Origin: Nannocystis pusilla
Lineage (GTDB): Bacteria > Myxococcota_A > Polyangia > Nannocystales > Nannocystaceae
Reading direction: 5' to 3'
DNA length: 64,000 nt
NCBI RefSeq assembly: GCF_026626665.1
Contig: NZ_JAPNKE010000002.1
Span: 1,357,204 to 1,421,203, forward strand
Shown here: positions 3,207 to 62,823 of the stretch, piece after piece
Layout of the letters: each line of letters opens with the position of its first letter
Position numbering within the stretch: the first letter of the stretch is position 1
Notes under the pieces: model-generated
Database searches by the model: none
Told to the model about the DNA's origin: nothing
The model's input: the letters and a program-made list of their open reading frames with translations, nothing else
Made by a program: the position numbers and the translations under genes

Positions 3207-4087
3207 CGGAGCTCCAGACCATCGTCCGGCCGTTCTCGCCGGCCGAGCTCGCTATCGACGCCACCACCCTCGCGCAGGTGTTCTATCGCCTGCGCCGATA
3301 CTCGTCGCTGACCTACGTCAAGCGCTGCACCGAGCTCGTGCAGAAGTTCAGCGCCGGCTTCGACGCGTGGGCCCGCAAGTCGGGGCCCGATCACACCCAG
3401 TTCGCCCGCAAGGCGCTGCAGACGGTGTATCCGCCGCTGGCGGCGCTCGAGCAGGTGCCGGGCCTTCTGCTCGGCAACCAGAAGACGCGGGCCTACGACG
3501 CGCTGATCCAGGCCGGCTTCCTCGCCGAGCTGCTCGGCCACGGCTTCGACGGCGGCATGCGCTGGGAGAAGTTCGGCTACAACTACGGCGAGCGGCCGAG
3601 CGTCGGCCTGTTCGCGTGGGCCGAGAAGGCGGTGGTGATGGCGGCGCAGATGCAGCGCACCGCCGAGGCCAAGTGGTCGCACACGCTCATGGCCCTGCAG
3701 CGCCCGGCGCCGCCGCACGCCCACCTCCAGCCGATGCCGCCGGCCGACGGCGTCGTCGTCGACCCGGACGAGGTCGTGCCGGTGACCGGGGTGTGGGTGC
3801 CGCTCGACGTGCCGAACGGCTGCCCGAACTACCTGGTCGAGGGCGTGCCGGCGCCGAAGCTGACGGTCGAGACCCAGCGCGTCGACTCCGAGGGCTACCC
3901 CGGCGACCCCGAGAACCCGCCGATCGCCGCGCGCACCGACTACGTGTACGGCGAGGTGCCGACCCGCTGGCAGCTGGCGTGGGACGACATCCGCTACCGC
4001 GCCGGCGTCGAGATCGACGAGCCCGAGTTCCTCGACGAGGAGACCGAACTCCCGGCCTGGCCGCCGGCCCATCCGCCTTCGCCATGA
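3203..4087 (+). CDS. Hypothetical protein, putative cognate immunity protein
   Basis: The GTG at 3203 overlaps the effector stop (GTGA). Coding-like composition runs from VTELQTIVRPFSPAEL to the stop. The upstream part of ORF 1847..4087 is Arg/Gly-rich noise. Confidence 0.5.
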   Translation: MTELQTIVRPFSPAELAIDATTLAQVFYRLRRYSSLTYVKRCTELVQKFSAGFDAWARKSGPDHTQFARKALQTVYPPLAALEQVPGLLLGNQKTRAYDALIQAGFLAELLGHGFDGGMRWEKFGYNYGERPSVGLFAWAEKAVVMAAQMQRTAEAKWSHTLMALQRPAPPHAHLQPMPPADGVVVDPDEVVPVTGVWVPLDVPNGCPNYLVEGVPAPKLTVETQRVDSEGYPGDPENPPIAARTDYVYGEVPTRWQLAWDDIRYRAGVEIDEPEFLDEETELPAWPPAHPPSP

Positions 4088-4983
4088 GCGCGAGCCCTGC
4101 CAAGAGCCCTCCGTACGCCGGACCGCCCAACCTCGAGGGACCCGCGCCGCGACTGGTCGTCGAGGTGCTGTGGGGGCCCGAGCAGGGCAAGAAGGCGGTG
4201 ATCGCCGCGGGCGGGGCGGTCACGGTCGGGCGCGACGCGGCGGCCGGCCTGTGCCTGGCCCACGACGAGGCGCTGGCGCCGATCCACCTGCAGATCGAGT
4301 GGGACGGGCGGGTCGCCGCGGTGCAGGCGCTGGTGAACGAACGGACATGTCTCGACGGACAGCCGATGCGCGAGGGCAGGAGCGGCCACGGCGGCTGGGT
4401 GCGCGCCGGCGCGTCCGACCTGGCGCTGGCGATCGAGCGCCACACGCGGCCCGATCCGCCGCCGACGCCGGCGAGGGTGGCCGCGGCCGCGCCGGCGATC
4501 GCGGCCCTGCGGGCGCTGCCCGGCCGGCTGTTCGCGGTCGCCGACGCGTCGCGCGACGAGCGGGTGCGCGTGCTCCTGCGCGAGTCGCCGGCCCGCTACC
4601 GCTCGCTGTTCGACGGCTGGCAGGGCGACGCGATCGCCGAGTCTGCGCCGTACCTGGTCGAGCTCGGGCCGCCGCACCCGGAGCTGCTCGAAGATCTGGT
4701 GGTCGAGGGCTGGCACACCGACGACGCCCGACGCGACGGCGACGGCGGCTGGGCGATCTTCCTGTCGGTGCCCGACGGCCGCGAGCTCGAGGCGGTGCGC
4801 CGCCACCTGCGCAAGTTCCTCATGGTCGAGCTCGATCGCGAGAAGGTCTACTTCCGCTTCTACGACCCGCGGGTGCTGCGGGCGTTCGTGCCGACCTGCA
4901 CCGCCGCCGAGCGGCGCGAGCTCCTCGGCGACATGGGGTGGCACATCACCTGTCCCGAAGGACTGCTGAGCTTCCGCGCCTGA
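4084..4983 (+). CDS. FHA-like domain / DUF4123 (T6SS adaptor-type) protein
   Basis: The ATG overlaps the upstream stop (ATGA). The N-terminus is FHA-like (VTVGRDAAAGLCLAHDEALAPIHLQIEWDGR...NERTCLDGQPM). The C-terminus carries the DUF4123 signature (WAIFLSVPDGRELEAVRRHLRKFLMVELDREKVYFRFYDPRVLRAFVP). Confidence 0.6.
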   Translation: MSASPAKSPPYAGPPNLEGPAPRLVVEVLWGPEQGKKAVIAAGGAVTVGRDAAAGLCLAHDEALAPIHLQIEWDGRVAAVQALVNERTCLDGQPMREGRSGHGGWVRAGASDLALAIERHTRPDPPPTPARVAAAAPAIAALRALPGRLFAVADASRDERVRVLLRESPARYRSLFDGWQGDAIAESAPYLVELGPPHPELLEDLVVEGWHTDDARRDGDGGWAIFLSVPDGRELEAVRRHLRKFLMVELDREKVYFRFYDPRVLRAFVPTCTAAERRELLGDMGWHITCPEGLLSFRA

Positions 4984-5105
4984 GCGGCCCGCGCGAGGCA
5001 GTCCTGCGAAGCTGCTGAGCTTCCGCGCCCGGGCGGCGCGCTCGGCAGTCCCGAAGCGCTGCCGAGCTCCCGCGGCCGAGCGGCGCGCGCGAGGTCTCGG
5101 TCCAC
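4950..5105. repeat. Imperfect tandem direct repeats (~45-50 bp unit, about 3 copies) just downstream of the DUF4123 gene
   Basis: GACTGCTGAGCTTCCGCGCCTGAGCGGCCCGCGCGAGGCAGTCCTGCGAAG recurs with variation as GCTGCTGAGCTTCCGCGCCCGGGCGGCGCGCTCGGCAGTCCCGAAGCG and GCTGCCGAGCTCCCGCGGCCGAGCGGCGCGCGCGAGG. Confidence 0.45.
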
Positions 5106-6699: not shown

Positions 6700-6783
6700 G
6701 CGGAAGGACATGTCCGCGGCGGCATGTTCGGAAGGTCATGTCCGCAGGTGCATGTCCGGAAAGACATGCTCCTGCGGACAGCC

Positions 6784-7521
6784 TCAGCGGTTGTCGAGCG
6801 CGACCCGGCGGAAGGACCCGCACCCGCCGGCCGACGGGGCGCCCGGCGTGGCGAAGCACGGGATGCCCGGGTCCGGCCCGTCGACGACGACGTTGCAGCG
6901 CCAGCTCCAGCCGTCGCCGACGGCGACGTCGTCGGGGACGGTCGAGACGAGCCGGAACGTCGCGCGCTGGGCCGGCGGCAAGCTCGTGACCTCGCGCGCG
7001 TCGCGGTCCTCTGCGTCGAGGATGACGTTGCCGCCCGCGGGCGCGAAGCCGACGAGGCCGACGTCGTGGAGCGCCAGCGGCACCTCGCAGCCGTTGTGCA
7101 GCTCCACGACGGCCCGCGGCGGGGCGCCGCGGATCGCCCGCAGCTCGACGCCGAGGCAGTTCACGACCCGGCGCCGCTCCTCCTCCGCGAACTGGCGCTC
7201 GACCTCGGCCCGCCGCGCCTCGGCGGCGCGATCGTCGAGCACGACCGCGACGATGTAGCCGCCCGCCAGCAGCACGTGCATGACGACGGGCCCCCAGGTG
7301 CGCCGGCCGACCCACAGCATGAGGAAGGTCGTCAACAGCGCGTAGGCGACGAGGATCTCGAGCGTGAAGACGGCGGCGAGGCCGAGGAGAACGGACTCAC
7401 CGCGCGGCAGGCCGAGCAGGACCTCGCCGAACACGTAGAGGTAGAGGACGACCAGCGCCACGAGGGCCAGGCCGTGGAGCTGCCAGGCGCGACGCGTGTC
7501 GCGGCGGTCGGGCGCCGTCAC
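6784..7521 (-). CDS. Hypothetical membrane protein
   Basis: The GTG start at 7521 overlaps the stop of the upstream lipoprotein gene (GTGA). TM helices LHGLALVALVVLYLYVF, LLGLAAVFTLEILVAYALLTTFLMLWV, VVMHVLLAGGYIVAVVL. The 5' part of ORF 6784..7680 overlaps the neighbouring gene and is discarded. Confidence 0.5.
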   Translation of the reverse strand: MTAPDRRDTRRAWQLHGLALVALVVLYLYVFGEVLLGLPRGESVLLGLAAVFTLEILVAYALLTTFLMLWVGRRTWGPVVMHVLLAGGYIVAVVLDDRAAEARRAEVERQFAEEERRRVVNCLGVELRAIRGAPPRAVVELHNGCEVPLALHDVGLVGFAPAGGNVILDAEDRDAREVTSLPPAQRATFRLVSTVPDDVAVGDGWSWRCNVVVDGPDPGIPCFATPGAPSAGGCGSFRRVALDNR

Positions 7522-13215: not shown

Positions 13216-13336
13216 CGCCGGGCGCCCGCTCCGGGCGCGCCGCTCACGAACGACGGCCATGTCCTGCGGGACATGGCCGTTCGGCCATTGTCGAACGGAC
13301 ATGTCGCCGCGGACACGGCCGCCGCGCCGGCCCGAC

Positions 13337-15255: not shown

Positions 15256-16752
<1,497 letters not shown>

Positions 16753-16988
16753 GCGGAAGCGAGGAGGGCCCGGGTCGCCGCTCCGGGACGCGGGGCTGCG
16801 AGGGACGTCGGGCCTCGGCGGCCGCTTCGGCGAGCTTCATGCGGCGCGGACGTCGAGGGCGGCGAGGCTTCACGGGTCGCGTGCTCGGCTCGACAGGCGC
16901 CGGAAGGTCCGGGATGTCTGCACGGACATGTCCGGTGGAGCATGTCGTATCATTTATGTCTCTATGGACATGCTTTAAAGCATGTCCC

Positions 16989-17708
16989 TCAGAACCGGCC
17001 GGCGAGCGACAGGCCGACGAAGCGGGGGGTCACGCTCGGCTCGAGCCGCAGCTCGCTCAGGCGCGAGACCCGGACGGCGCGGGCGTACGAGACGCCGTAG
17101 GCGAGCAGGCCGGCGCCGGCGACGGTGAGCGACTGGCCGGCGGCGGTCAGCACCAGCCAGGCGCTCCAGCGGTCGCGGACGCAGCTCTCCGTCAGCGTGC
17201 CCTCCTGGCGGCAGCTCTCGGCCCCGAACCTGTCGCGCCACAGGGCCACCCGCGAGCCGACGTACATCGCCAGGCCGAGGGCGAGCAGACCGGCGCCGCC
17301 GCCGAGGTAGGCCGGGGCGATCTTCTCGCGGCGCTCGTGCCGGGCCCGGTTCCACGCCGTGAAGCGGCCGCGCACGGTCCCGCCGCCGGCCGCCAGCCCG
17401 ATCGCGGCGAAGTTGAACAGCGGGGCCACGGTCGAGAAGCCGAGGTAGCGCAGCGACTCGTCGACGCAGCCGGTGACCGTGACCTGCAGCTCGGGGAAGA
17501 CGAACTGCTGGCCGCCGCAGCCGCGGCGGAGGATGCCGATCCGCCACACGTGCGCGGCGAGCCCGAGGCCGCCCGCGACGCCGGCGCTGACCAGGAGGCC
17601 GAGGCCCGACAGAGGCATCGCCGGCGGCAGCTCGCGCGCGGGCGCGGGCGCGGGCCCGACCGGCCGGACGAGCGTGAGCGACACGAACAGGGCGAGCGCG
17701 GGCGACAT
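16989..17708 (-). CDS. Hypothetical membrane protein
   Basis: ATG at 17708 (MSPALALFVSLTLV...) with four predicted TM segments. The 5' extension of ORF 16989..18131 is translation of the tandem repeat array and is rejected. Confidence 0.45.
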   Translation of the reverse strand: MSPALALFVSLTLVRPVGPAPAPARELPPAMPLSGLGLLVSAGVAGGLGLAAHVWRIGILRRGCGGQQFVFPELQVTVTGCVDESLRYLGFSTVAPLFNFAAIGLAAGGGTVRGRFTAWNRARHERREKIAPAYLGGGAGLLALGLAMYVGSRVALWRDRFGAESCRQEGTLTESCVRDRWSAWLVLTAAGQSLTVAGAGLLAYGVSYARAVRVSRLSELRLEPSVTPRFVGLSLAGRF

Positions 17709-17939
17709 CGCCGCAAGGTGAGGGCGATCGCGGATCGACGCCAGCGCGCGCGGCGGTCCGCGAGGTCGCCGGAATCGTCGGTGTGCGCGGCGTCGCAGCG
17801 AGCAGGTGCGCGGCGCGAGGCGGGCGACCGGGCGGAGGAGGTCTCGAAGGACATGTCGATGACGCGGGCCGCAGTCGAGGCTCGGAGCTGGCGCAGCGGC
17901 GCGGCGACCAGGACGTGCCGTTCGTCGAGCGGCCGCGGC

Positions 17940-18140
17940 GCGACGTGGCGAAGAGGACATGTCAGAACGGCCATGGCGCGCGGGTGAGCCCGTGTGCCGA
18001 CGTGGCGAAGAGGACATGTCGGAACGGACATGGCGAACGGGTGAGCCCGCGGGCCGACGTGGCGAAGAGGACATGTCGGAACGGACATGGCGAACGGGTG
18101 AGCCCGCGGGCCGACGTGGCGAAGAGGACATGTCGGAGCG
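17940..18140. repeat. Tandem array (~62 bp unit, about 3.3 copies) built from the CATGTCC...GGACATG dyad motif
   Basis: GAAGAGGACATGTCGGAACGGACATGGCGAACGGGTGAGCCCGCGGGCCGACGTGGC repeated. It translates as the MSSSPRRPAGSPVRHVRSD x3 artefact on the minus strand and MSERTWRTGEPAGRRGEED x3 on the plus strand. Confidence 0.7.
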
Positions 18141-18182
18141 GACATGCGACCAGCGGTCCGCCCTGCCGAGCGGCGGCGCGGC

Positions 18183-19280
18183 TCAGATCTCCGGCGACTC
18201 GCAGGTCTCCTTCGGCGTGAGCGTGACGAAGGCGAGCAGGCCGTCCTCGCCGGCGATCAGCGCGCCGACGGTGCTGCCGCGGGAGACCACGCGAGCGCCG
18301 GCGCCGACCGGCGTGGGCTCGGCGAGCATGGAGGACTCGGGCCACCCGCCGAGCGTGCCGTCGTCGTAGAGGGCGGTGAAGATGTCGTAGACGCGGGCGA
18401 GGCCGAGGACCGGGATCGCAGGGTCGTCCGGGTAGAACGAGACCTCCTTGGCGGCCTGATGCAGGACCTTGCCGGTGGCGGTGACGACGGCGGCCTCGTC
18501 GTAGACCTCGGCGATCCGCACGAGGTCCTCGGTCGTGCCGGTGTCGACGCGGGCCCAGGTGAGGCCGGCGTCGACGCTGTGGACCGCCAGGCCGCCGTCG
18601 CCGACCGCGACCAGCGGACTGCCGGTGACGGCGCGGAACGAGCCGGTGGCGGCCGGATCGAGGGCGACCGGCTGCCAGGTCGCGCCGGCGTCGGCGGAGC
18701 GCACGATCACGCCGTCGCCGACGGCGACCCCGTGCAGCGAGAGCTCGCCGTCGACGATGAAGTTGAAGAACACGACGTCGCGCAGCGCGGCCTCGGTGCC
18801 GAGATCGACGGGGACCCAGGTGTCGCCGCCGTCATCGCTGCGGTGGGCGACACCGCCGTCGCCGACGACCATCCAGCGGTCGAGATCGATCCGCTCGACC
18901 CGCTTGAGGGCCGGATCTGCGGGCAGCGCGAGAGGATGGAACACGCCGCCGTCGTCGGGGCGGAACAGTCGACCGTCGGCGGTCAGGGCGAGCGCGGTCT
19001 TCGGGCCGAGCGCGGCGACCGAGACGAACTCGACCGCCTCGTCCGCCTTCAGCGGGGTGACGTCGAGGAGGTAGACGAAGTCCTCGCAGCCGGGGGTGCC
19101 CTCGGTGACCGTGGGCGACTCCTCGGTCGGGTCGGGCAGGCCGGTGGTCGGCGACGAGGTCGAGGACGACGAGGATGAGGAGGTCGAGCTCGACGATGCG
19201 CCGTCGGTGTCGGCGTCGGGTTTGGAGCAGGCGAGGGCCAGCGTCGGCAGCACGAGCAGGAGCGAGCGAAGCGAAGTCAT
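18183..19280 (-). CDS. BNR/Ycf48-like repeat lipoprotein (putative beta-propeller)
   Basis: MTSLRSLLLVLPTLALAC lipobox; poly-Ser linker; repeated DGGDTW / DAGATW / DAGLTW motifs. Confidence 0.7.
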   Translation of the reverse strand: MTSLRSLLLVLPTLALACSKPDADTDGASSSSTSSSSSSSTSSPTTGLPDPTEESPTVTEGTPGCEDFVYLLDVTPLKADEAVEFVSVAALGPKTALALTADGRLFRPDDGGVFHPLALPADPALKRVERIDLDRWMVVGDGGVAHRSDDGGDTWVPVDLGTEAALRDVVFFNFIVDGELSLHGVAVGDGVIVRSADAGATWQPVALDPAATGSFRAVTGSPLVAVGDGGLAVHSVDAGLTWARVDTGTTEDLVRIAEVYDEAAVVTATGKVLHQAAKEVSFYPDDPAIPVLGLARVYDIFTALYDDGTLGGWPESSMLAEPTPVGAGARVVSRGSTVGALIAGEDGLLAFVTLTPKETCESPEI

Positions 19281-19754
19281 GGCAGTCCCTTCAATTGGTC
19301 GAGAGCTGCCGGAGCTGTCAATCGCCGGCGACGCATCACGCGGGGCGCTGTGGTGATTGCCCGCGGTGGCGGTCGCGCCCGCGGCGCCTGCCAGACGCGG
19401 CGCACGGCCGACGGGCCTCCGGCGTGGGTCGGCGGCGCCCCAGCCGGGCTCGAATGCAGGCAGCGCCGCGTCTCCGTTCGCGCGCCGACCTGGCATGGCA
19501 ATGACTGGACTCCGCACTCGCGGTGAATGTCCATGTAGACATGTTCGATGGGACAGATCGGAGGCGGCTCTTCGTATGCCGCGGCGACGGCCGTGGCCGA
19601 GCGCTGCGGATGGGCGCGGCGCCGGCGTTCGCAGGAGTGTGGGCTGTCGGCGCGCGGATCGACGCGGCCCCGCGCTCGCATCCGCCCGGCAGCGCCCGCG
19701 GCCCGCGCGACCGTGCGCGTTCCCTCGGCCCGGCAAACGGCGGACAATGAGGCG

Positions 19755-47589: not shown

Positions 47590-49399
47590 TCATCGTGTGA
47601 GTAGTTCGTCGAGGGCCAGCATCCACTCGCCGGCGGGCGTCACCACCCACGCGCCCGCGGTCAGGCGGGCGCGCACGGCCGCCGCGGCTTCGACCGGCAG
47701 GGCGTCGACGATCGCCATCGGGGCGAGCTGAGCGTATGGGACATCGTCGGCCAACCGACGACAGCCCTCTGGCCACGCGGCCAGGGCGACCCGTCGACCC
47801 TGCCGGTCGAGGACCGGCTGCAGGCCCGGCACGTCGGCCGCGAGCAGCGCGTCGAGGGCGATGTCGTCCCAGGCGGCCGCCGCCTCGACGACGACGCCGT
47901 GGCCGGGCAGGCCTGAATCATCGGACATGACCCCAGGTTCCTGTCCCATGGGCTCTGTGCTCATGGACAGGTCCCGAAGGTCAGCCACGCGCCGGCGCAT
48001 GCGCGCGAGCAGGGCGGTCGCGTCCGGGCGGCGCGCGGGGTCGGGGTCGAGGGCGTCCTCGACGACCGCGCGGGCCTCGGGCGCGCTGCCGCCGAGGTTG
48101 CCGGCGACGAGCGCGACCAGCAGCGCGGCGGCGCCGTAGACGTCGCTGGCGGCGGTGGGGCCCGCCGGCGCGGACCTCGGGCGCGGTGATCGTGAGCAGC
48201 TCCTCGAGCGCGCCGGTGCGGGTGGCGATGAGCCCGGCGATCGCGTCGGCGCCGAACGGGCCGAGCAGCGGGCGCCCGGCGGCGTCGCACACGAGCTGGG
48301 CCGGCAGCAGCGAGCCGTGGACCAGGCCGCGCGCGTGGGCGGCGGCCAGGCCCTCGAGCAAAAAGGCGATCAGGGCCCGGGCCCGCGGCAGCGGCATGCC
48401 GGGCGGACGGATGAGCGCCCGCAGGTTGTTGCCGGCCTCCCAGGGCAGGATGAGGATGCCGGCGCGGGCGTCGAACTGGACGATGCCGCGGATCGCCGGG
48501 TGCTCCAACGCGGCGGCGGCGAGGGCCCGGCGGTGGAACGCCTCGAGCGCGTCCTGGACCGCGGGGTCGCCGGCGCCGCTCTCCTGCAGCTCGGCGAGGA
48601 GGAGGTGGATCTCGACCTCGGCGAGGGTGACGCGGTCGATGCCCTCGTAGGCCGCGCCGGAGAAGCTGGCCGGCAGCGAGGCGCGGACGAGGAAGCGCGC
48701 CGGCACCGGGGCGCCCTCGGGGGCCTCGCCGCGGCCTTGCAGGACGATCTGGGCCGCGAGGTCGTGGCCCAGGGCCCCGAGGCCGCGGGCCAGGAGGCGG
48801 CTCAAGGCGGCGCGGTCGGCCCCGCCGGCGCGGATGGCCGCCTGGGCCCGTCGCACCGCGGCCTCGGCGTCGCCGAGCTCCCACGACAGCTCGGCGGCGA
48901 GCTGCAAGGTCGGGCCGTGGCGCTCGGGCAGCGGCTCCAGCAGCGCCAGGGCCTCGCGCACGCGGTCGGCCTCGGCCAGCACGCGCGCGGCCCCGAGTCT
49001 GTCGCCGGCGCGCACGAGGGCGCGGGCGCGGGCCTCGGGGTCGTGGTCGCCGAGCGCCAAGATCCGGGCCGCGTCGGCGTGCCGACCCTTGCGCTGCAGC
49101 AGGGCGGCGGCCTGCTGGCGGGTGTCGGCGTCGGCGGCGGCGAACACCGCGATGATGCGGTCGACGACGTCGGGCCGGCCGAGCTCGATCGCCGCGCGCA
49201 GGGCGTCGAGCGGGCGGCCGGCGCGGGCGTAGTGCTCGCAGGCGCCGGCGAACTCCCAGATCTGCTCGAGCACCCAGCCGGCCGCGGCGTGCCGGCCCGC
49301 CAGCGCGAGCGCGTGGGCGAGGGCCTCGTGCCGCCCCTGGGCGAGCATGCGCTGCTCGTCGTCGGTCAGCGGCTCGGGCGGGGCCGGGACGGCCGCCAA
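47590..49399 (-). CDS. TPR-like N-terminus plus protein-kinase-like domain that is probably a pseudokinase (HGSLLPAQL in place of HRDLKPxN); frameshift near 48160
   Basis: ORF 47981..49399 (…LAAAHARGLVHGSLLPAQLVCDAAGRPLLGPFG…TAPEVRAGGP) continues in the frame of ORF 47590..48000 (TAASDVYGAAALLVALVAG…MRRRVADL…). Confidence 0.5.
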
Positions 49400-58641: not shown

Positions 58642-59335
58642 AGACCGGCGAGCGCGGCGAGGCCAGGGCCCTGCGAGGTTGGCCGCCCGGCGGCGGCCTG
58701 AGCTGCTCTGCTCGGTTGCCAGGGGCGATGCGGCGCGTGCGTCGCGGCGCTCCGGCTCGTGGTGGCGGCGCTGGGGCTCGCTCCGGGACGACGCTGCAGC
58801 CCTGCAGACGCCGTCGTGAGGACGGGCCTCACGAAGATGCCTGGTCGATCGGACAGGCCCTCGAACGAGGCGGCGGTCGGCGCACTTCGAGGTGAGCGCC
58901 GACTGGGCCCCGCGGCGACCGCAGACGGAGGGCCGTCGCGGCGCTTCGAGGCAGGCGTCGCCTCGGTCCGCGGCGCACGGAGACGGGAAAGCTGGGCGGT
59001 GCGTCGAGGCGGACGTCGTCGTGGTCCGCGGCGCCCGGCGCGAGGGCCGTGCAGCGCATCGAGGTCGTACCGGCCCGTGGCGATGCGTCCGGTGCTTCGA
59101 CGGTGAATCCAGTGAGCTCTCCCTGTCCCAGGTCATGACGGGTCGAGGCAGACGTCGCCGCGGTCCGCGGTGAGGCGCGGAGCAATGGCCGCACGCGACA
59201 TGACCGAAGGGACAGCCTCTCGCGCACGCAGCCGGGGGCTGCACGTTTTTGCAGGGGCGACGGACGAGCCGACCCCCGGCGAGGGTCGATGGGCGCTTGA
59301 CAAACATGCTTTCCATCGTGGAAAGAATACGCGTC

Positions 59336-61452: not shown

Positions 61453-62823
61453 GTGGACGCGACGACCTTCATCCTCGCCGCGGCGCTGGGGGCCGCCCCG
61501 GCCGACGAGATCACCAGCGTCCCGGTGCCCGAGAGCCGCGAGGCGGCGCCGCGGGTGCCGGCGGCGGCCGGCGGCGGCAGTGCCCCGGAGGACATGTCTG
61601 AAGCGACAGGTCCTCGGGGGCCTGTCGTCGAGACCACCTCGACCGCCGTGCAGGGGACGGGCGAACCTGGCGGCGCCGTCCCGGCGGGTCCCGTCCCGGC
61701 GGGCCCTGTCGCGCCGACGGGCGCTCCCGCCCGGGATGCCTCGAAGGACATGCCCTCGGGGACAGCCAGGCCGCCGCTGCGCGAGCGGCTGCAGTTCTTC
61801 CCGTACGGGTGGATCCGCACCGACGCGACCGGGTACTCGGCGCCGCGCGAGGGCTACAGCAACATCAGCCTGGCGGGGGCGCGGATCGGCGGCGGGGTCC
61901 AGATCGGGCCGGTCACCGCGTTCGTGACGATCGAGGCGGCGCAGGCCAAGGGGCCGCAGCTGTTCGACGCGTTCATCGCCTGGGCCGCGGCGCCGCGGCT
62001 GCGGCTGCGCGCCGGCCAGTTCAAGGCGCCGTTCGGCCTGCGCTTCAACGCGCCCGACCTGGTCGACGAGCTGCCGCGCGCGCCGCTGTCGATGCTGGCG
62101 GCCACGCCCGGGCGACAGGTCGGGCTCGAGGTGGCCTACGACTTCTGGCGCTGGGCCGAGGTCACCGCCGCGGTGTTCTCCGGCATCGGCCAGAACCGCG
62201 AGGCCAACAACACCAAGATCGCGTTCGCCGGCAAGGTGCAGCTGAGTCCGCTGGCGTTCCTGCGGCGCGGCCCGCAGCTCCTGCTGGTCGCGTCGGTGTT
62301 CGCCTACCACAAGACCAACGGCTTCACGCCGACGGTGACCACCGCGTTCGCCTTCGACTTCTTCCACGGCCTGCCGAGCACGGGCGCGTCGCGCCGCTTC
62401 ACCGCCGGCGGCGGGCTGTTCTGGCGCTTCCTCTCGGCCCGCGGCGAGTTCTTCTACACCTACGACTCGCGCGAGCGCGACACCGACGGCGACCCCTTCA
62501 CGCCCGGCGACCCGCTGCCCCAGCTGATCGGCGCCGGCGGTTACGCCCAGGTCGGCGCGGTGGTGACGGGCCAGGACAAGGACCCGGCGACGCTGCTGCC
62601 GCGGCTGGCGAGCCGCCGCGTGCGCGACAGCGCGGTCGAGCTGTCGGCCCGCTTCGAGCGCTTCCGCGTCGGCGCCCGCGACGTGGTCGGCAACGGCATC
62701 ACCGCGACGTCGGCCGGCGTGAACTGGGTGCTGCTGCAGCACCTGCGGGTGTTCGCGGCGGTGAACTGGCAGCGCCTGGAGACCGCGATCCCCGAGATCC
62801 CCGCGCCACCTCGTGGGGCGTGA
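61453..62823 (+). CDS. Phosphate-selective porin O/P-like outer-membrane protein; start uncertain
   Basis: Beta-barrel-like C-terminal region (...FKAPFGLRFNAPDLVDEL...GVNWVLLQHLRVFAAVNWQRL). Starting at 61453 gives a signal-like MDATTFILAAALGAAPA, but dyad-motif copies lie at 61590-61760. The alternative start is 61748. Confidence 0.5.
   Translation: MDATTFILAAALGAAPADEITSVPVPESREAAPRVPAAAGGGSAPEDMSEATGPRGPVVETTSTAVQGTGEPGGAVPAGPVPAGPVAPTGAPARDASKDMPSGTARPPLRERLQFFPYGWIRTDATGYSAPREGYSNISLAGARIGGGVQIGPVTAFVTIEAAQAKGPQLFDAFIAWAAAPRLRLRAGQFKAPFGLRFNAPDLVDELPRAPLSMLAATPGRQVGLEVAYDFWRWAEVTAAVFSGIGQNREANNTKIAFAGKVQLSPLAFLRRGPQLLLVASVFAYHKTNGFTPTVTTAFAFDFFHGLPSTGASRRFTAGGGLFWRFLSARGEFFYTYDSRERDTDGDPFTPGDPLPQLIGAGGYAQVGAVVTGQDKDPATLLPRLASRRVRDSAVELSARFERFRVGARDVVGNGITATSAGVNWVLLQHLRVFAAVNWQRLETAIPEIPAPPRGA
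61590..61760. repeat. Dyad-motif copies (GGAGGACATGTCTGAAGCGACAGGTCC ... GAAGGACATGCCCTCGGGGACAG)
   Basis: Same CATGTCC/GGACA(G/T)G half-sites seen at the other loci. Confidence 0.5.

What the first reader, a model, noticed from the sequence alone, without database searches (positions are those of the whole stretch)
17940..18140. 62-bp tandem array of the dyad motif creates long spurious ORFs on both strands
Three to four near-identical units of GAAGAGGACATGTCGGAACGGACATGGCGAACGGGTGAGCCCGCGGGCCGACGTGGC occur. There are no unique spacers, so this is not CRISPR. It lies between two convergent genes and extends ORFs 16989..18131(-) and 17959..18369(+) with repeated peptides. Tandem amplification of a putative binding site suggests either a strong regulatory hub or replication slippage of a small mobile unit. 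The copy number may vary between strains.
Basis: seen in the sequence. Interest (0 to 1): 0.5.

Follow-up and report, generated by a model that had tools for sequence, protein, structure and literature searches.

The report
Strain-specific tandem amplification of palindromic boxes
A 57-bp block of a short palindromic repeat that marks gene ends throughout the myxobacterial genus Nannocystis has been duplicated in place to about four copies in this strain only; it is non-coding and ordinary, but the repeat family behind it appears undescribed.

Summary
The tandem array is real: 17933..18146, period 57 bp (not 62), 3.8 copies, far beyond chance. The window is Nannocystis pusilla.

- **Flanking genes:** both run on the minus strand (BNR lipoprotein 18183..19280; 239-aa hypothetical 16989..17708). 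The array lies after one gene's stop and upstream of the next, not between convergent genes.
- **ORFs:** both long ORFs through it are spurious. 57 = 19 codons, there is no GC3 signal, and orthologues start at 17708.
- **Unit structure:** each unit is four 14-bp-phased "boxes" (consensus GGACATGTCC + 4 nt). This box is the most intergenic-enriched motif in the genus. It occupies 84% of convergent spacers and clusters just after stop codons.
- **Strain comparison:** four other N. pusilla-group genomes carry exactly one copy at this site. N. punicea and N. exedens show independent amplifications (82 bp x4, ~113 bp x2) in the same spacer.
- **Origin:** the unit occurs nowhere else, so this is in-situ duplication, a VNTR-like higher-order repeat. 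It is not a mobile insertion, a CRISPR, or a gene-specific regulatory hub.
- **Family:** it behaves like REP/BIME clusters but lacks the GTAG/CGTC tag, U-tracts and any RNA-specific signature.

The parts
17933..18146 (.). 57-bp x 3.8 tandem array, a higher-order repeat. On the + strand each unit reads [CGACGTGGCG]aaga[GGACATGTCG]gaac[GGACATGGCG]aacg[GGTGAGCCCG]cgggc, i.e. four boxes in 14-bp phase.
   Evidence: TRF, the repeat finder D1, copy matrix, box parsing.
18090..18146 (-). Copy 1, next to gene A's stop. It is the copy that aligns with the single copy in other strains.
18033..18089 (-). Copy 2, 56/57 identical to copy 1.
17976..18032 (-). Copy 3, 53/57 identical to copy 2.
17919..17975 (-). 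Copy 4, diverged (40/57). Its first ~35 nt are conserved. Its tail keeps the ancestral unique flank (gtcgcgccgcggccgc) seen in single-copy strains, followed by a box-like CGGCACGTCC exactly one period downstream.
18183..19280 (-). Gene A: BNR/Ycf48-like lipoprotein, 365 aa, with lipobox LALAC. Its stop codon lies 37 nt before the array.
   Evidence: Translation; Pfam PSII_BNR/BNR; GC3 frame plot; 365-aa orthologue in L117.
16989..17708 (-). Gene B: Nannocystis-restricted hypothetical protein, 239 aa. This is the true start; the array is not part of it.
   Evidence: Homologues are 232-239 aa; 100% identical to P0010/MCY1005147.1; gene caller; frame plot.
17709..18131 (-). Spurious N-terminal extension of gene B's ORF through the array (19-aa repeated peptide SDMSSSPRRPAGSPVRHVR).
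   Evidence: Third-position GC is 0.57-0.65 here against 0.97-1.00 in the gene. Orthologues lack it. 57 = 19 codons keeps the frame open.
17959..18369 (+). Spurious shadow ORF. It is antisense to gene A's 3' end and shares its third codon positions, then runs through the array.
17840..17858 (-). Single box/half-hairpin CGACATGTCCttcgAGACC, conserved in all N. pusilla-group strains. It marks the distal edge of the conserved ~170-nt region upstream of gene B.
   Evidence: Alignment; strain comparison.
16905..16988. Box run that begins 1 nt after gene B's stop codon in the convergent spacer. All eight Nannocystis genomes compared carry a run of 3-9 boxes (by the criterion) starting 0-7 nt after that stop, of differing sequence.

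Best explanation
**What it is**
The array is a strain-specific, in-situ tandem amplification (a VNTR-like higher-order repeat) of a four-box block. The block belongs to a genus-wide Nannocystis family of 10-bp palindromic boxes (GGACATGTCC) set in strict 14-bp phase.

**Shown**
- The ancestral state, kept in four related strains, is one box pair (TCGCATGTCC-N4-CGACATGTCC-tcttcgcca) about 36 nt after the stop of the BNR-lipoprotein gene.
- In this strain that pair plus ~27 nt of its local downstream flank has been duplicated to about 3.8 copies.
- The youngest, near-identical copies lie next to gene A. The oldest copy lies at the gene-B side.

**Inferred**
- The first duplication arose by slipped-strand mispairing or unequal recombination between two box-like direct repeats exactly 57 nt apart (CGCCATGTCC and CGGCACGTCC).
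- Further copies arose by misalignment between the 57-bp copies.

**Function**
- The array is non-coding and is not a dedicated regulator of this locus.
- It adds extra copies of an element whose normal place is the 3' end of genes. The family sits immediately after stop codons and fills most convergent spacers.
- I take the family to be a bidirectional gene-end element (transcription end or insulator, REP/BIME-like).
- On present evidence it is read at the level of sequence and spacing, most simply by a dimeric factor on double-stranded DNA, rather than as a free RNA hairpin.
- The extra copies here are most likely neutral, or at most strengthen the separation of gene A's transcript from gene B's conserved promoter-proximal region.
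For: **Array and context**
- Array and copy gradient.
- Both neighbours on the minus strand: and gene tables.
- Single copy in L117 (99% gene-B identity), L001, L118 and L119 (94%), with spacers of 251-297 nt against 477 nt here. The N-terminal extension of P0018 reads through a single-copy spacer as well.
- The unit's non-box half is homologous to the unique flank of L117.
- The unit is absent elsewhere.
- Independent amplifications occur in the same spacer in N. punicea (82 bp x3.4-4) and N. exedens (~113 bp x2).
- Comparable box- or hairpin-bearing arrays occur elsewhere in the genus: L008, L012, L015, L083, L103.

**Family**
- ACATGTC/CATGTCC are the top intergenic-enriched 7-mers, 10-13x.
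- GGACATGTC with up to one mismatch occurs 85 times against 13.7 expected.
- Box spacing is strictly 14/28/42/56 bp.
- 71 of 85 convergent spacers are occupied, at 14.7 boxes/kb. Tandem spacers have 3.3/kb, divergent 1.6/kb, coding 1.2/kb. In tandem spacers boxes are skewed to the upstream stop.
- A run starts 0-7 nt after gene B's stop in all eight genomes compared.
- 55 of 110 pattern hits among 185,579 species are Nannocystis/Nannocystaceae.

**Sequence-level rather than RNA-level constraint**
- Boxes are conserved while the 4-nt spacers are free.
- Flanks are strand-symmetric.
- G.U = 42 against A.C = 41 on the sense strand.

**Precedent**
REP dimers reiterated in tandem together with flanking DNA are known for REP families (PMC3733652, read).
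Against: - No transcript, termination or binding data exist, so the function is inferred from position only.
- One stem pair does covary across the loop (arm position 3 with 8: 44 Watson-Crick pairs against 28.3 expected; top mutual-information cell).
- Some runs fold into very stable hairpins (z = -7.4, -5.0, -6.8). An RNA or cruciform role is therefore not excluded.
- The 57-bp period breaks the 14-bp phase by 1 nt per unit, so the array is not a perfect extension of a box run.
- The periods of other arrays (77, 82, 97, 105, 121, 143) are not multiples of 14. Box-to-box slippage is therefore not a general rule.
- The array has been seen in one assembly only.
Confidence: 0.8

Rival explanations
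1. RNA-level REP-like element. The boxes act as hairpins in the 3' UTR of gene A's transcript, as a terminator or a block to 3'-exonucleases. The amplification multiplies those hairpins.
For: - Placement is at 3' ends and in convergent spacers, as for REPs (PMC3733652).
- Canonical box pairs fold strongly (-23.8 kcal/mol, z = -6.8; whole runs z = -5 to -7.4).
- The outer stem pair covaries.
Against: - There is no G.U over A.C bias on the sense strand (42 v 41).
- Flanks are strand-symmetric.
- Spacers show no complementarity (z = 0.4).
- No covariation appears in the loose set.
- No U-tract follows.
- The array unit folds weakly on the sense strand (z = -1.0), and the whole spacer gives z = -1.05.
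- There is no Rfam match.
Confidence: 0.3
2. Regulatory hub. The array is a battery of operator sites for a transcription factor that controls gene B (or gene A).
For: - The boxes are 10-bp palindromes, conserved at the sequence level with fixed spacing.
- The array lies upstream of gene B.
Against: - The same box is in 84% of convergent spacers and just after stops genome-wide. It is not locus-specific.
- Close relatives manage with one copy.
- The conserved ~170 nt proximal to gene B's ATG lies outside the array.
- No sigma-70-like promoter is found in the spacer.
Confidence: 0.08
3. Insertion and local multiplication of a small mobile element (MITE- or REPIN-like).
For: - The box family is abundant and dispersed.
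- REP-type elements can be mobilised by RAYTs (PMC2817692).
Against: - The 57-bp unit and both its halves occur only in the array and not in viral contigs. Metagenome matches are unrelated chance hits.
- The box pair is orthologous to the single copy at the same position in relatives, and the rest of the unit is local flank.
- Runs elsewhere share only the box consensus, not spacers or ends.
- There is no GTAG/CGTC tag.
Confidence: 0.03
4. Assembly artefact: a single copy wrongly expanded.
For: The array has been seen in one assembly only. The tandem junction was not found in metagenomes.
Against: - The copies differ by 1, 4 and 17 substitutions in an ordered gradient.
- The array is only 214 bp.
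- Comparable arrays exist at the same spacer in the complete N. punicea chromosome and elsewhere in the genus.
Confidence: 0.05
5. The repeats encode a repetitive N-terminal domain of gene B.
For: An open frame of 380 aa starts with ATG, and the period is divisible by 3.
Against: - There is no third-position GC signal in the array.
- All homologues cover only the C-terminal 54-77% of the query, and the best are 232-239 aa.
- The identical public protein is 239 aa.
- Relatives lack the repeats.
Confidence: 0.02

Closest known systems
[quoted passage not shown]
   Same: - Short extragenic palindromes in high copy.
- Regularly spaced clusters.
- Preference for convergent and unidirectional spacers downstream of genes.
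- Local tandem amplification of a dimer plus flank.
- Rapid turnover between strains.
   Different: - No GTAG or CGTC terminal tag.
- The unit is a self-palindromic 10-mer in strict 14-bp phase, with runs that rarely exceed six boxes.
- No G.U bias or other RNA signature.
- RAYT association is unknown.
- The host is a myxobacterium, a group not mentioned in the two REP/RAYT survey papers I read.
VNTR / bacterial minisatellite
   Same: A head-to-tail repeat with a 57-bp unit, intergenic, whose copy number differs between closely related strains (1 v 3.8).
   Different: The unit is itself built from a dispersed, apparently functional motif in 14-bp phase, so this is a higher-order repeat. No population survey of alleles exists.
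Conserved-sequence terminator-like hairpins (TRIT of Mycobacterium tuberculosis, PMC3152330; inverted DUS pairs of Neisseria, from my own knowledge)
   Same: A lineage-specific, sequence-conserved palindrome concentrated just after stop codons in a genome poor in canonical U-tract terminators.
   Different: It occurs as phased multi-box runs, has no U-tract, and its termination activity is untested. It is far more depleted in coding DNA than uptake sequences usually are.
CRISPR array
   Same: Short palindromic repeats at regular intervals.
   Different: The copies abut one another with no unique spacers. The 4-nt inter-box spacers are far too short. Not a member.

Membership tests
VNTR / minisatellite | Head-to-tail copies of a unit of 10 bp or more | tested here: met
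   TRF period 57, 3.8 copies, 92% matches; copy matrix.
VNTR / minisatellite | Copy number differs between strains at the same locus | tested here: met
   One copy in L117, L001, L118 and L119 against 3.8 here.
REP / BIME (RAYT-associated extragenic palindromes) | 20-40 nt imperfect palindrome, high copy, extragenic | tested here: met
   - 24-nt box-N4-box units.
- 85 core matches against 13.7 expected.
- 10-13x intergenic enrichment.
REP / BIME (RAYT-associated extragenic palindromes) | Preferential location downstream of genes, in convergent and unidirectional spacers | tested here: met
   14.7 boxes/kb in convergent spacers, 3.3 in tandem, 1.6 in divergent, 1.2 in coding. 84% of convergent spacers are occupied.
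REP / BIME (RAYT-associated extragenic palindromes) | Terminal GTAG or CGTC tetranucleotide tag | tested here: not met
   Tags in the 14 nt flanking 542 run ends are at or below background: GTAG 9 v 9.8 expected, CGTC 33 v 63.8.
REP / BIME (RAYT-associated extragenic palindromes) | A RAYT (IS200/IS605-type Y1 transposase) gene in the genome, flanked by the repeats | not testable with these tools
REP / BIME (RAYT-associated extragenic palindromes) | Clusters of regularly spaced units (BIME) | tested here: met
   Spacing is strictly 14/28/42/56 bp, with runs of up to 6 boxes, rarely 7-9. Alternating orientation cannot be scored because the box is its own reverse complement.
Intrinsic (Rho-independent) terminator | Stable G+C-rich hairpin | tested here: inconclusive
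   Canonical pairs and runs fold very well (z = -5 to -7.4). The array unit and the whole spacer do not (z about -1).
Intrinsic (Rho-independent) terminator | U-tract immediately after the hairpin | tested here: not met
   - No terminator-like site lies in the array, and only one in 16700..19600.
- Run-end flanks show only a slight A/T rise over 2-3 nt.
CRISPR | Repeats separated by unique spacers of similar length | tested here: not met
   The units abut one another, and the whole 57 bp repeats.
MITE / small mobile unit | Copies of the same unit dispersed at unrelated loci | tested here: not met
   Both halves of the unit occur only in the array. There are none in viral contigs, and metagenome matches are unrelated.
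Protein-coding repeat | Codon-position composition and homologues that contain the repeat | tested here: not met
   Third-position GC is 0.57-0.65 against at least 0.97 in the flanking genes. Homologues are 232-239 aa and lack it.
Operator array of a locus-specific transcription factor | Motif restricted to the promoters of a regulon | tested here: not met
   The motif is in most gene-end spacers and is least dense in divergent (promoter-only) spacers.

The most novel reading that the evidence does not exclude
The GGACATGTCC boxes may be the binding sites of a dedicated, Nannocystis-specific DNA-binding factor that coats 14-bp-phased arrays at gene ends. Such a factor could act as a bidirectional roadblock terminator or as a topological insulator between convergent transcription units. 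That would be a gene-end marking system that does not rely on RNA hairpins or U-tracts. Under this reading the 57-bp array is a naturally occurring 'super-site' of about a dozen phased boxes that arose in one strain.
Probability: 0.2. Interest if true: 0.65.

Novelty: new variant of a known kind. Interest (0 to 1): 0.3.

Why it matters
**The array itself** matters little.
- It is a strain-variable, non-coding duplication.
- It can mislead gene callers. Public proteins P0002, P0004 and P0018 are extended into this spacer.
- It could serve as a typing marker.

**What it points to** matters more. Nannocystis, with 11-13 Mb genomes at 72% GC, carries a strikingly regular palindromic element at most gene ends, and I found no description of it.
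- If the boxes prove to be protein-bound or terminator elements, they would explain how transcription units are delimited in a lineage that lacks canonical terminators.
- The natural 1-copy and 4-copy alleles of this spacer would be a ready-made test pair.

Tried and rejected
- **Exact-protein look-ups.** Look-ups of gene A, gene B, the protease and P0010 found no record. The source contig itself could not be fetched.
- **Rfam.** At gathering thresholds only two tRNAs were found.
- **Folding the whole spacer.** Not significant, z = -1.05.
- **Promoter and terminator scan of the spacer.** Nothing in the array.
- **Literature.**
  - GGACATGTCC returns only p53 response-element papers, a coincidence.
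  - Nothing turned up on Nannocystis or myxobacterial extragenic repeats.
- **Covariation across the 4-nt loop and within boxes.**
  - Absent in 123 loose instances.
  - Only one pair shows a signal in the stricter and larger sets.
- **Long nested hairpins.** The idea that whole runs are long nested hairpins with complementary spacers came from two window examples. It failed in 296 spacer pairs, z = 0.4.
- **Stable tetraloops.** UUCG/CGAA looked enriched in the small set but not in the large one.
- **Transcription polarity.** Flank composition and G.U v A.C show none.
- **Slippage rule.** A general rule that array periods are multiples of 14 is not borne out.
- **Metagenome scans.**
  - For the tandem junction: 0 hits.
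  - For the conserved single-copy core: 8 unrelated chance hits.
- **Viral scan.** 0 hits.
- **Rejected readings.** CRISPR, MITE and coding repeat were considered and rejected (see membership table).

Full report
**Observation**

- Reading 17700..18500 and running Tandem Repeats Finder shows a head-to-tail array at 17933..18146. It has period 57, 3.8 copies, 92% matches and score 365.
- The repeat finder gives the same copies at 57/57 spacing.
- On the minus strand, counting from 18146 downward, successive copies are 56/57, 53/57 and 40/57 identical. A fifth register is no longer similar.
- Sub-segments of the unit have zero expected chance matches in shuffles.
- There are no unique spacers.

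**Organism and context**

- The window is about 72% G+C.
- The 380-aa ORF hits only nine proteins. All are from Nannocystis or unnamed assemblies, and all match only the C-terminal 54-77% of the query. The best hits are 232-239 aa.
- The 239-aa product of 16989..17708(-) is 100% identical to N. pusilla MCY1005147.1.
- A frame plot shows the typical third-position GC of 0.97-1.00 over roughly 17000..17600 and again over 18200..19100, in the phase of minus-strand genes. It collapses to 0.57-0.65 across the array.
- A codon-usage gene caller picks the same two genes independently.
- Gene A (18183..19280, -) is a BNR/Ycf48-like lipoprotein.
- Gene B (16989..17708, -) has no Pfam match.
- In seven orthologous loci both genes are called on one strand in this order.
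- The array therefore lies in a unidirectional spacer, 37 nt after gene A's stop and 225 nt before gene B's ATG. It is not between convergent genes.
- The minus-strand ORF stays open because 57 = 19 codons.
- The plus-strand ORF is a shadow frame sharing gene A's third codon positions.

**The unit is a block of a genus-wide motif**

- GGACATGTC with up to one mismatch occurs 85 times in the window against 13.7 expected.
- ACATGTC and CATGTCC are the most intergenic-enriched 7-mers, at 10-13x.
- The boxes recur at 14-bp phase.
- On the plus strand the 57-bp unit parses as [CGACGTGGCG]aaga[GGACATGTCG]gaac[GGACATGGCG]aacg[GGTGAGCCCG]cgggc. That is four boxes of 10+4 nt, the last one degenerate and one nucleotide long.
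- The array is thus a higher-order repeat of the 14-bp element.

**Comparison with relatives**

- Four other N. pusilla-group genomes were compared: L117 (99% gene-B identity), and L001, L118 and L119 (94%).
- Each has exactly one box pair, TCGCATGTCC-N4-CGACATGTCC-tcttcgcca, at the same distance from gene A's stop.
- None has a tandem repeat there, and their spacers are 251-297 nt against 477 nt here.
- The N-terminal extension of P0018 (MSVPTCP...) reads through a single-copy spacer too.
- The 27-nt non-box half of the unit is homologous to the unique sequence that follows the single copy in L117. The fourth, oldest copy still carries that ancestral flank, followed one period later by a box-like CGGCACGTCC.
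- About 170 nt next to gene B's ATG is conserved and lies outside the array.
- N. punicea has an unrelated 82-bp x3.4-4 array in the same spacer. N. exedens has a ~113-bp duplication there. Both carry the GAC(C)TGTCC-N4-GGAC core.
- In 533 kb of Nannocystis DNA there are further long-period, low-copy arrays carrying the core, in L008, L012, L015, L083 and L103.
- The unit itself is found nowhere else in the window, in viral contigs or meaningfully in metagenomes.
- This is in-situ amplification, varying between strains. It is not insertion of a mobile unit.

**The family**

Of these, 55 come from Nannocystis/Nannocystaceae. The other 55 come from unrelated taxa, nearly all with a single stretch each, as expected by chance.
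- In 533 kb of Nannocystis sequence:
  - boxes are spaced strictly at 14/28/42/56 bp (166/70/59/22 pairs);
  - run lengths show a shoulder at 5-6 boxes, with only three longer runs;
  - runs share the box consensus G-G-[A>G>C]-C-A-T-G-[T~C]-C-C but not spacers or flanks.
- Placement is the strongest signal:
  - convergent spacers hold 14.7 boxes/kb, with 71 of 85 occupied;
  - tandem spacers hold 3.3/kb, skewed to the upstream stop (median 61 nt from the stop v 176 nt to the next start);
  - divergent spacers hold 1.6/kb and coding sequence 1.2/kb.
- In all eight genomes compared a run starts 0-7 nt after gene B's stop. By the criterion these runs hold 3-9 boxes of different sequence. Presence and position are conserved while the content turns over.

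**How the family might work**

An RNA-hairpin reading is attractive.
- Canonical pairs fold at -23.8 kcal/mol (z = -6.8), and two window runs fold at z = -7.4 and -5.0.
- One stem pair covaries (44 Watson-Crick pairs v 28.3 expected; top mutual-information cell).

The other tests for RNA-level selection failed.
- No covariation appears in a looser set.
- Spacers are not complementary (z = 0.4).
- Flanks are strand-symmetric relative to transcription.
- G.U equals A.C on the sense strand (42 v 41).
- No U-tract follows.
- There is no Rfam family.
- The array unit and the spacer fold no better than shuffles on the sense strand.

What is conserved is the box sequence and its 14-bp phase. That fits recognition of sequence and spacing, most simply by a dimeric factor on duplex DNA. 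I regard this as inferred, not shown.

**Comparison with known kinds**

- The behaviour matches REP/BIME clusters. [quoted passage not shown]
- The family fails the tag that defines the two REP super-families: GTAG or CGTC at run ends is at or below background. RAYT association could not be tested.
- It is not a canonical intrinsic terminator (no U-tract), not CRISPR, not a MITE and not coding.
- I found no description of it in the searchable literature.

**Verdict**

Slippage-type amplification and strain-variable copy number hold. The mobile unit and the locus-specific regulatory hub do not.
- The array itself is an ordinary, probably near-neutral VNTR-like expansion. Interest is low to moderate.
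- The underlying gene-end box family is the more interesting object and deserves its own experimental test.

Noticed in passing
window-wide; e.g. 6706-6785, 13255-13320, 37830-37853, 47923-47988, 61576-61627: A genus-wide family of 10-bp palindromic boxes (GGACATGTCC) in strict 14-bp phase. Runs rarely exceed six boxes, occupy 84% of convergent spacers and start just after stop codons. The family appears undescribed.
   Followed up: yes
window 13250-13325 and 6700-6790: Two box runs in convergent spacers fold as single long nested hairpins (-53.6 kcal/mol, z = -7.4; -48.2 kcal/mol, z = -5.0) because their 4-nt spacers happen to be complementary. This is not general across the family.
   Followed up: yes
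window 22458-22606: Two four-box runs lie 97 bp apart. Each is followed by a near-identical 'tcagccaccg...ctcc(t)tg' segment that looks like the 3' end of a minus-strand gene. This suggests a duplication that carried a gene end together with its box run.
   Followed up: no
L002 3704-3978 (N. punicea) and L004 about 3750-3900 (N. exedens): Independent tandem amplifications (82 bp x3.4-4; ~113 bp x2) sit in the orthologous spacer. Their units are unrelated in sequence but carry the GACCTGTCC-N4-GGAC core. This spacer is a recurrent site of expansion.
   Followed up: partly
P0002 (300 aa), P0004 (320 aa), P0018 (317 aa): Public gene models of gene B orthologues are extended at the N-terminus into the box-bearing spacer. 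P0018 starts at the ATG inside a box (MSVPTCP). These are likely start-codon misannotations caused by the motif's ATG.
   Followed up: partly
adjacent box pairs in Nannocystis loci: Only the outer variable position covaries across the loop (arm position 3 with position 8 of the next box: G with C, A with T). The inner variable pair does not. No explanation so far.
   Followed up: partly
533 kb Nannocystis sample: The run-length distribution has a shoulder at 5-6 boxes (23 and 24 runs) and then drops to single cases of 7, 8 and 9. This suggests a preferred maximum size of about 80 bp.
   Followed up: no
window 16925-16946: The only terminator-like hit near the locus is itself a box pair (GACATGTCCGGTGGAGCATGTC) followed by a T-rich tail, in the convergent spacer downstream of the protease gene (15256..16752, +).
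   Followed up: no
window 16989-17708 (-): Gene B belongs to a small protein family seen only in Nannocystis (nine hits in 5.8 billion clusters). It has no Pfam domain and a hydrophobic, Gly/Ala-rich sequence with conserved cysteines.
   Followed up: no
window 4952-5089, 41971-42089, 58910-59064: Other intergenic long-period tandem repeats (47 bp x2.9, 60 bp x1.9, 58 bp x2.7). The second contains box-like GGACAGG/CCTGTCC cores.
   Followed up: no
window 27504-27576 (-) and 31106-31171 (-): Two tRNA genes, the only Rfam matches in the window.
   Followed up: no
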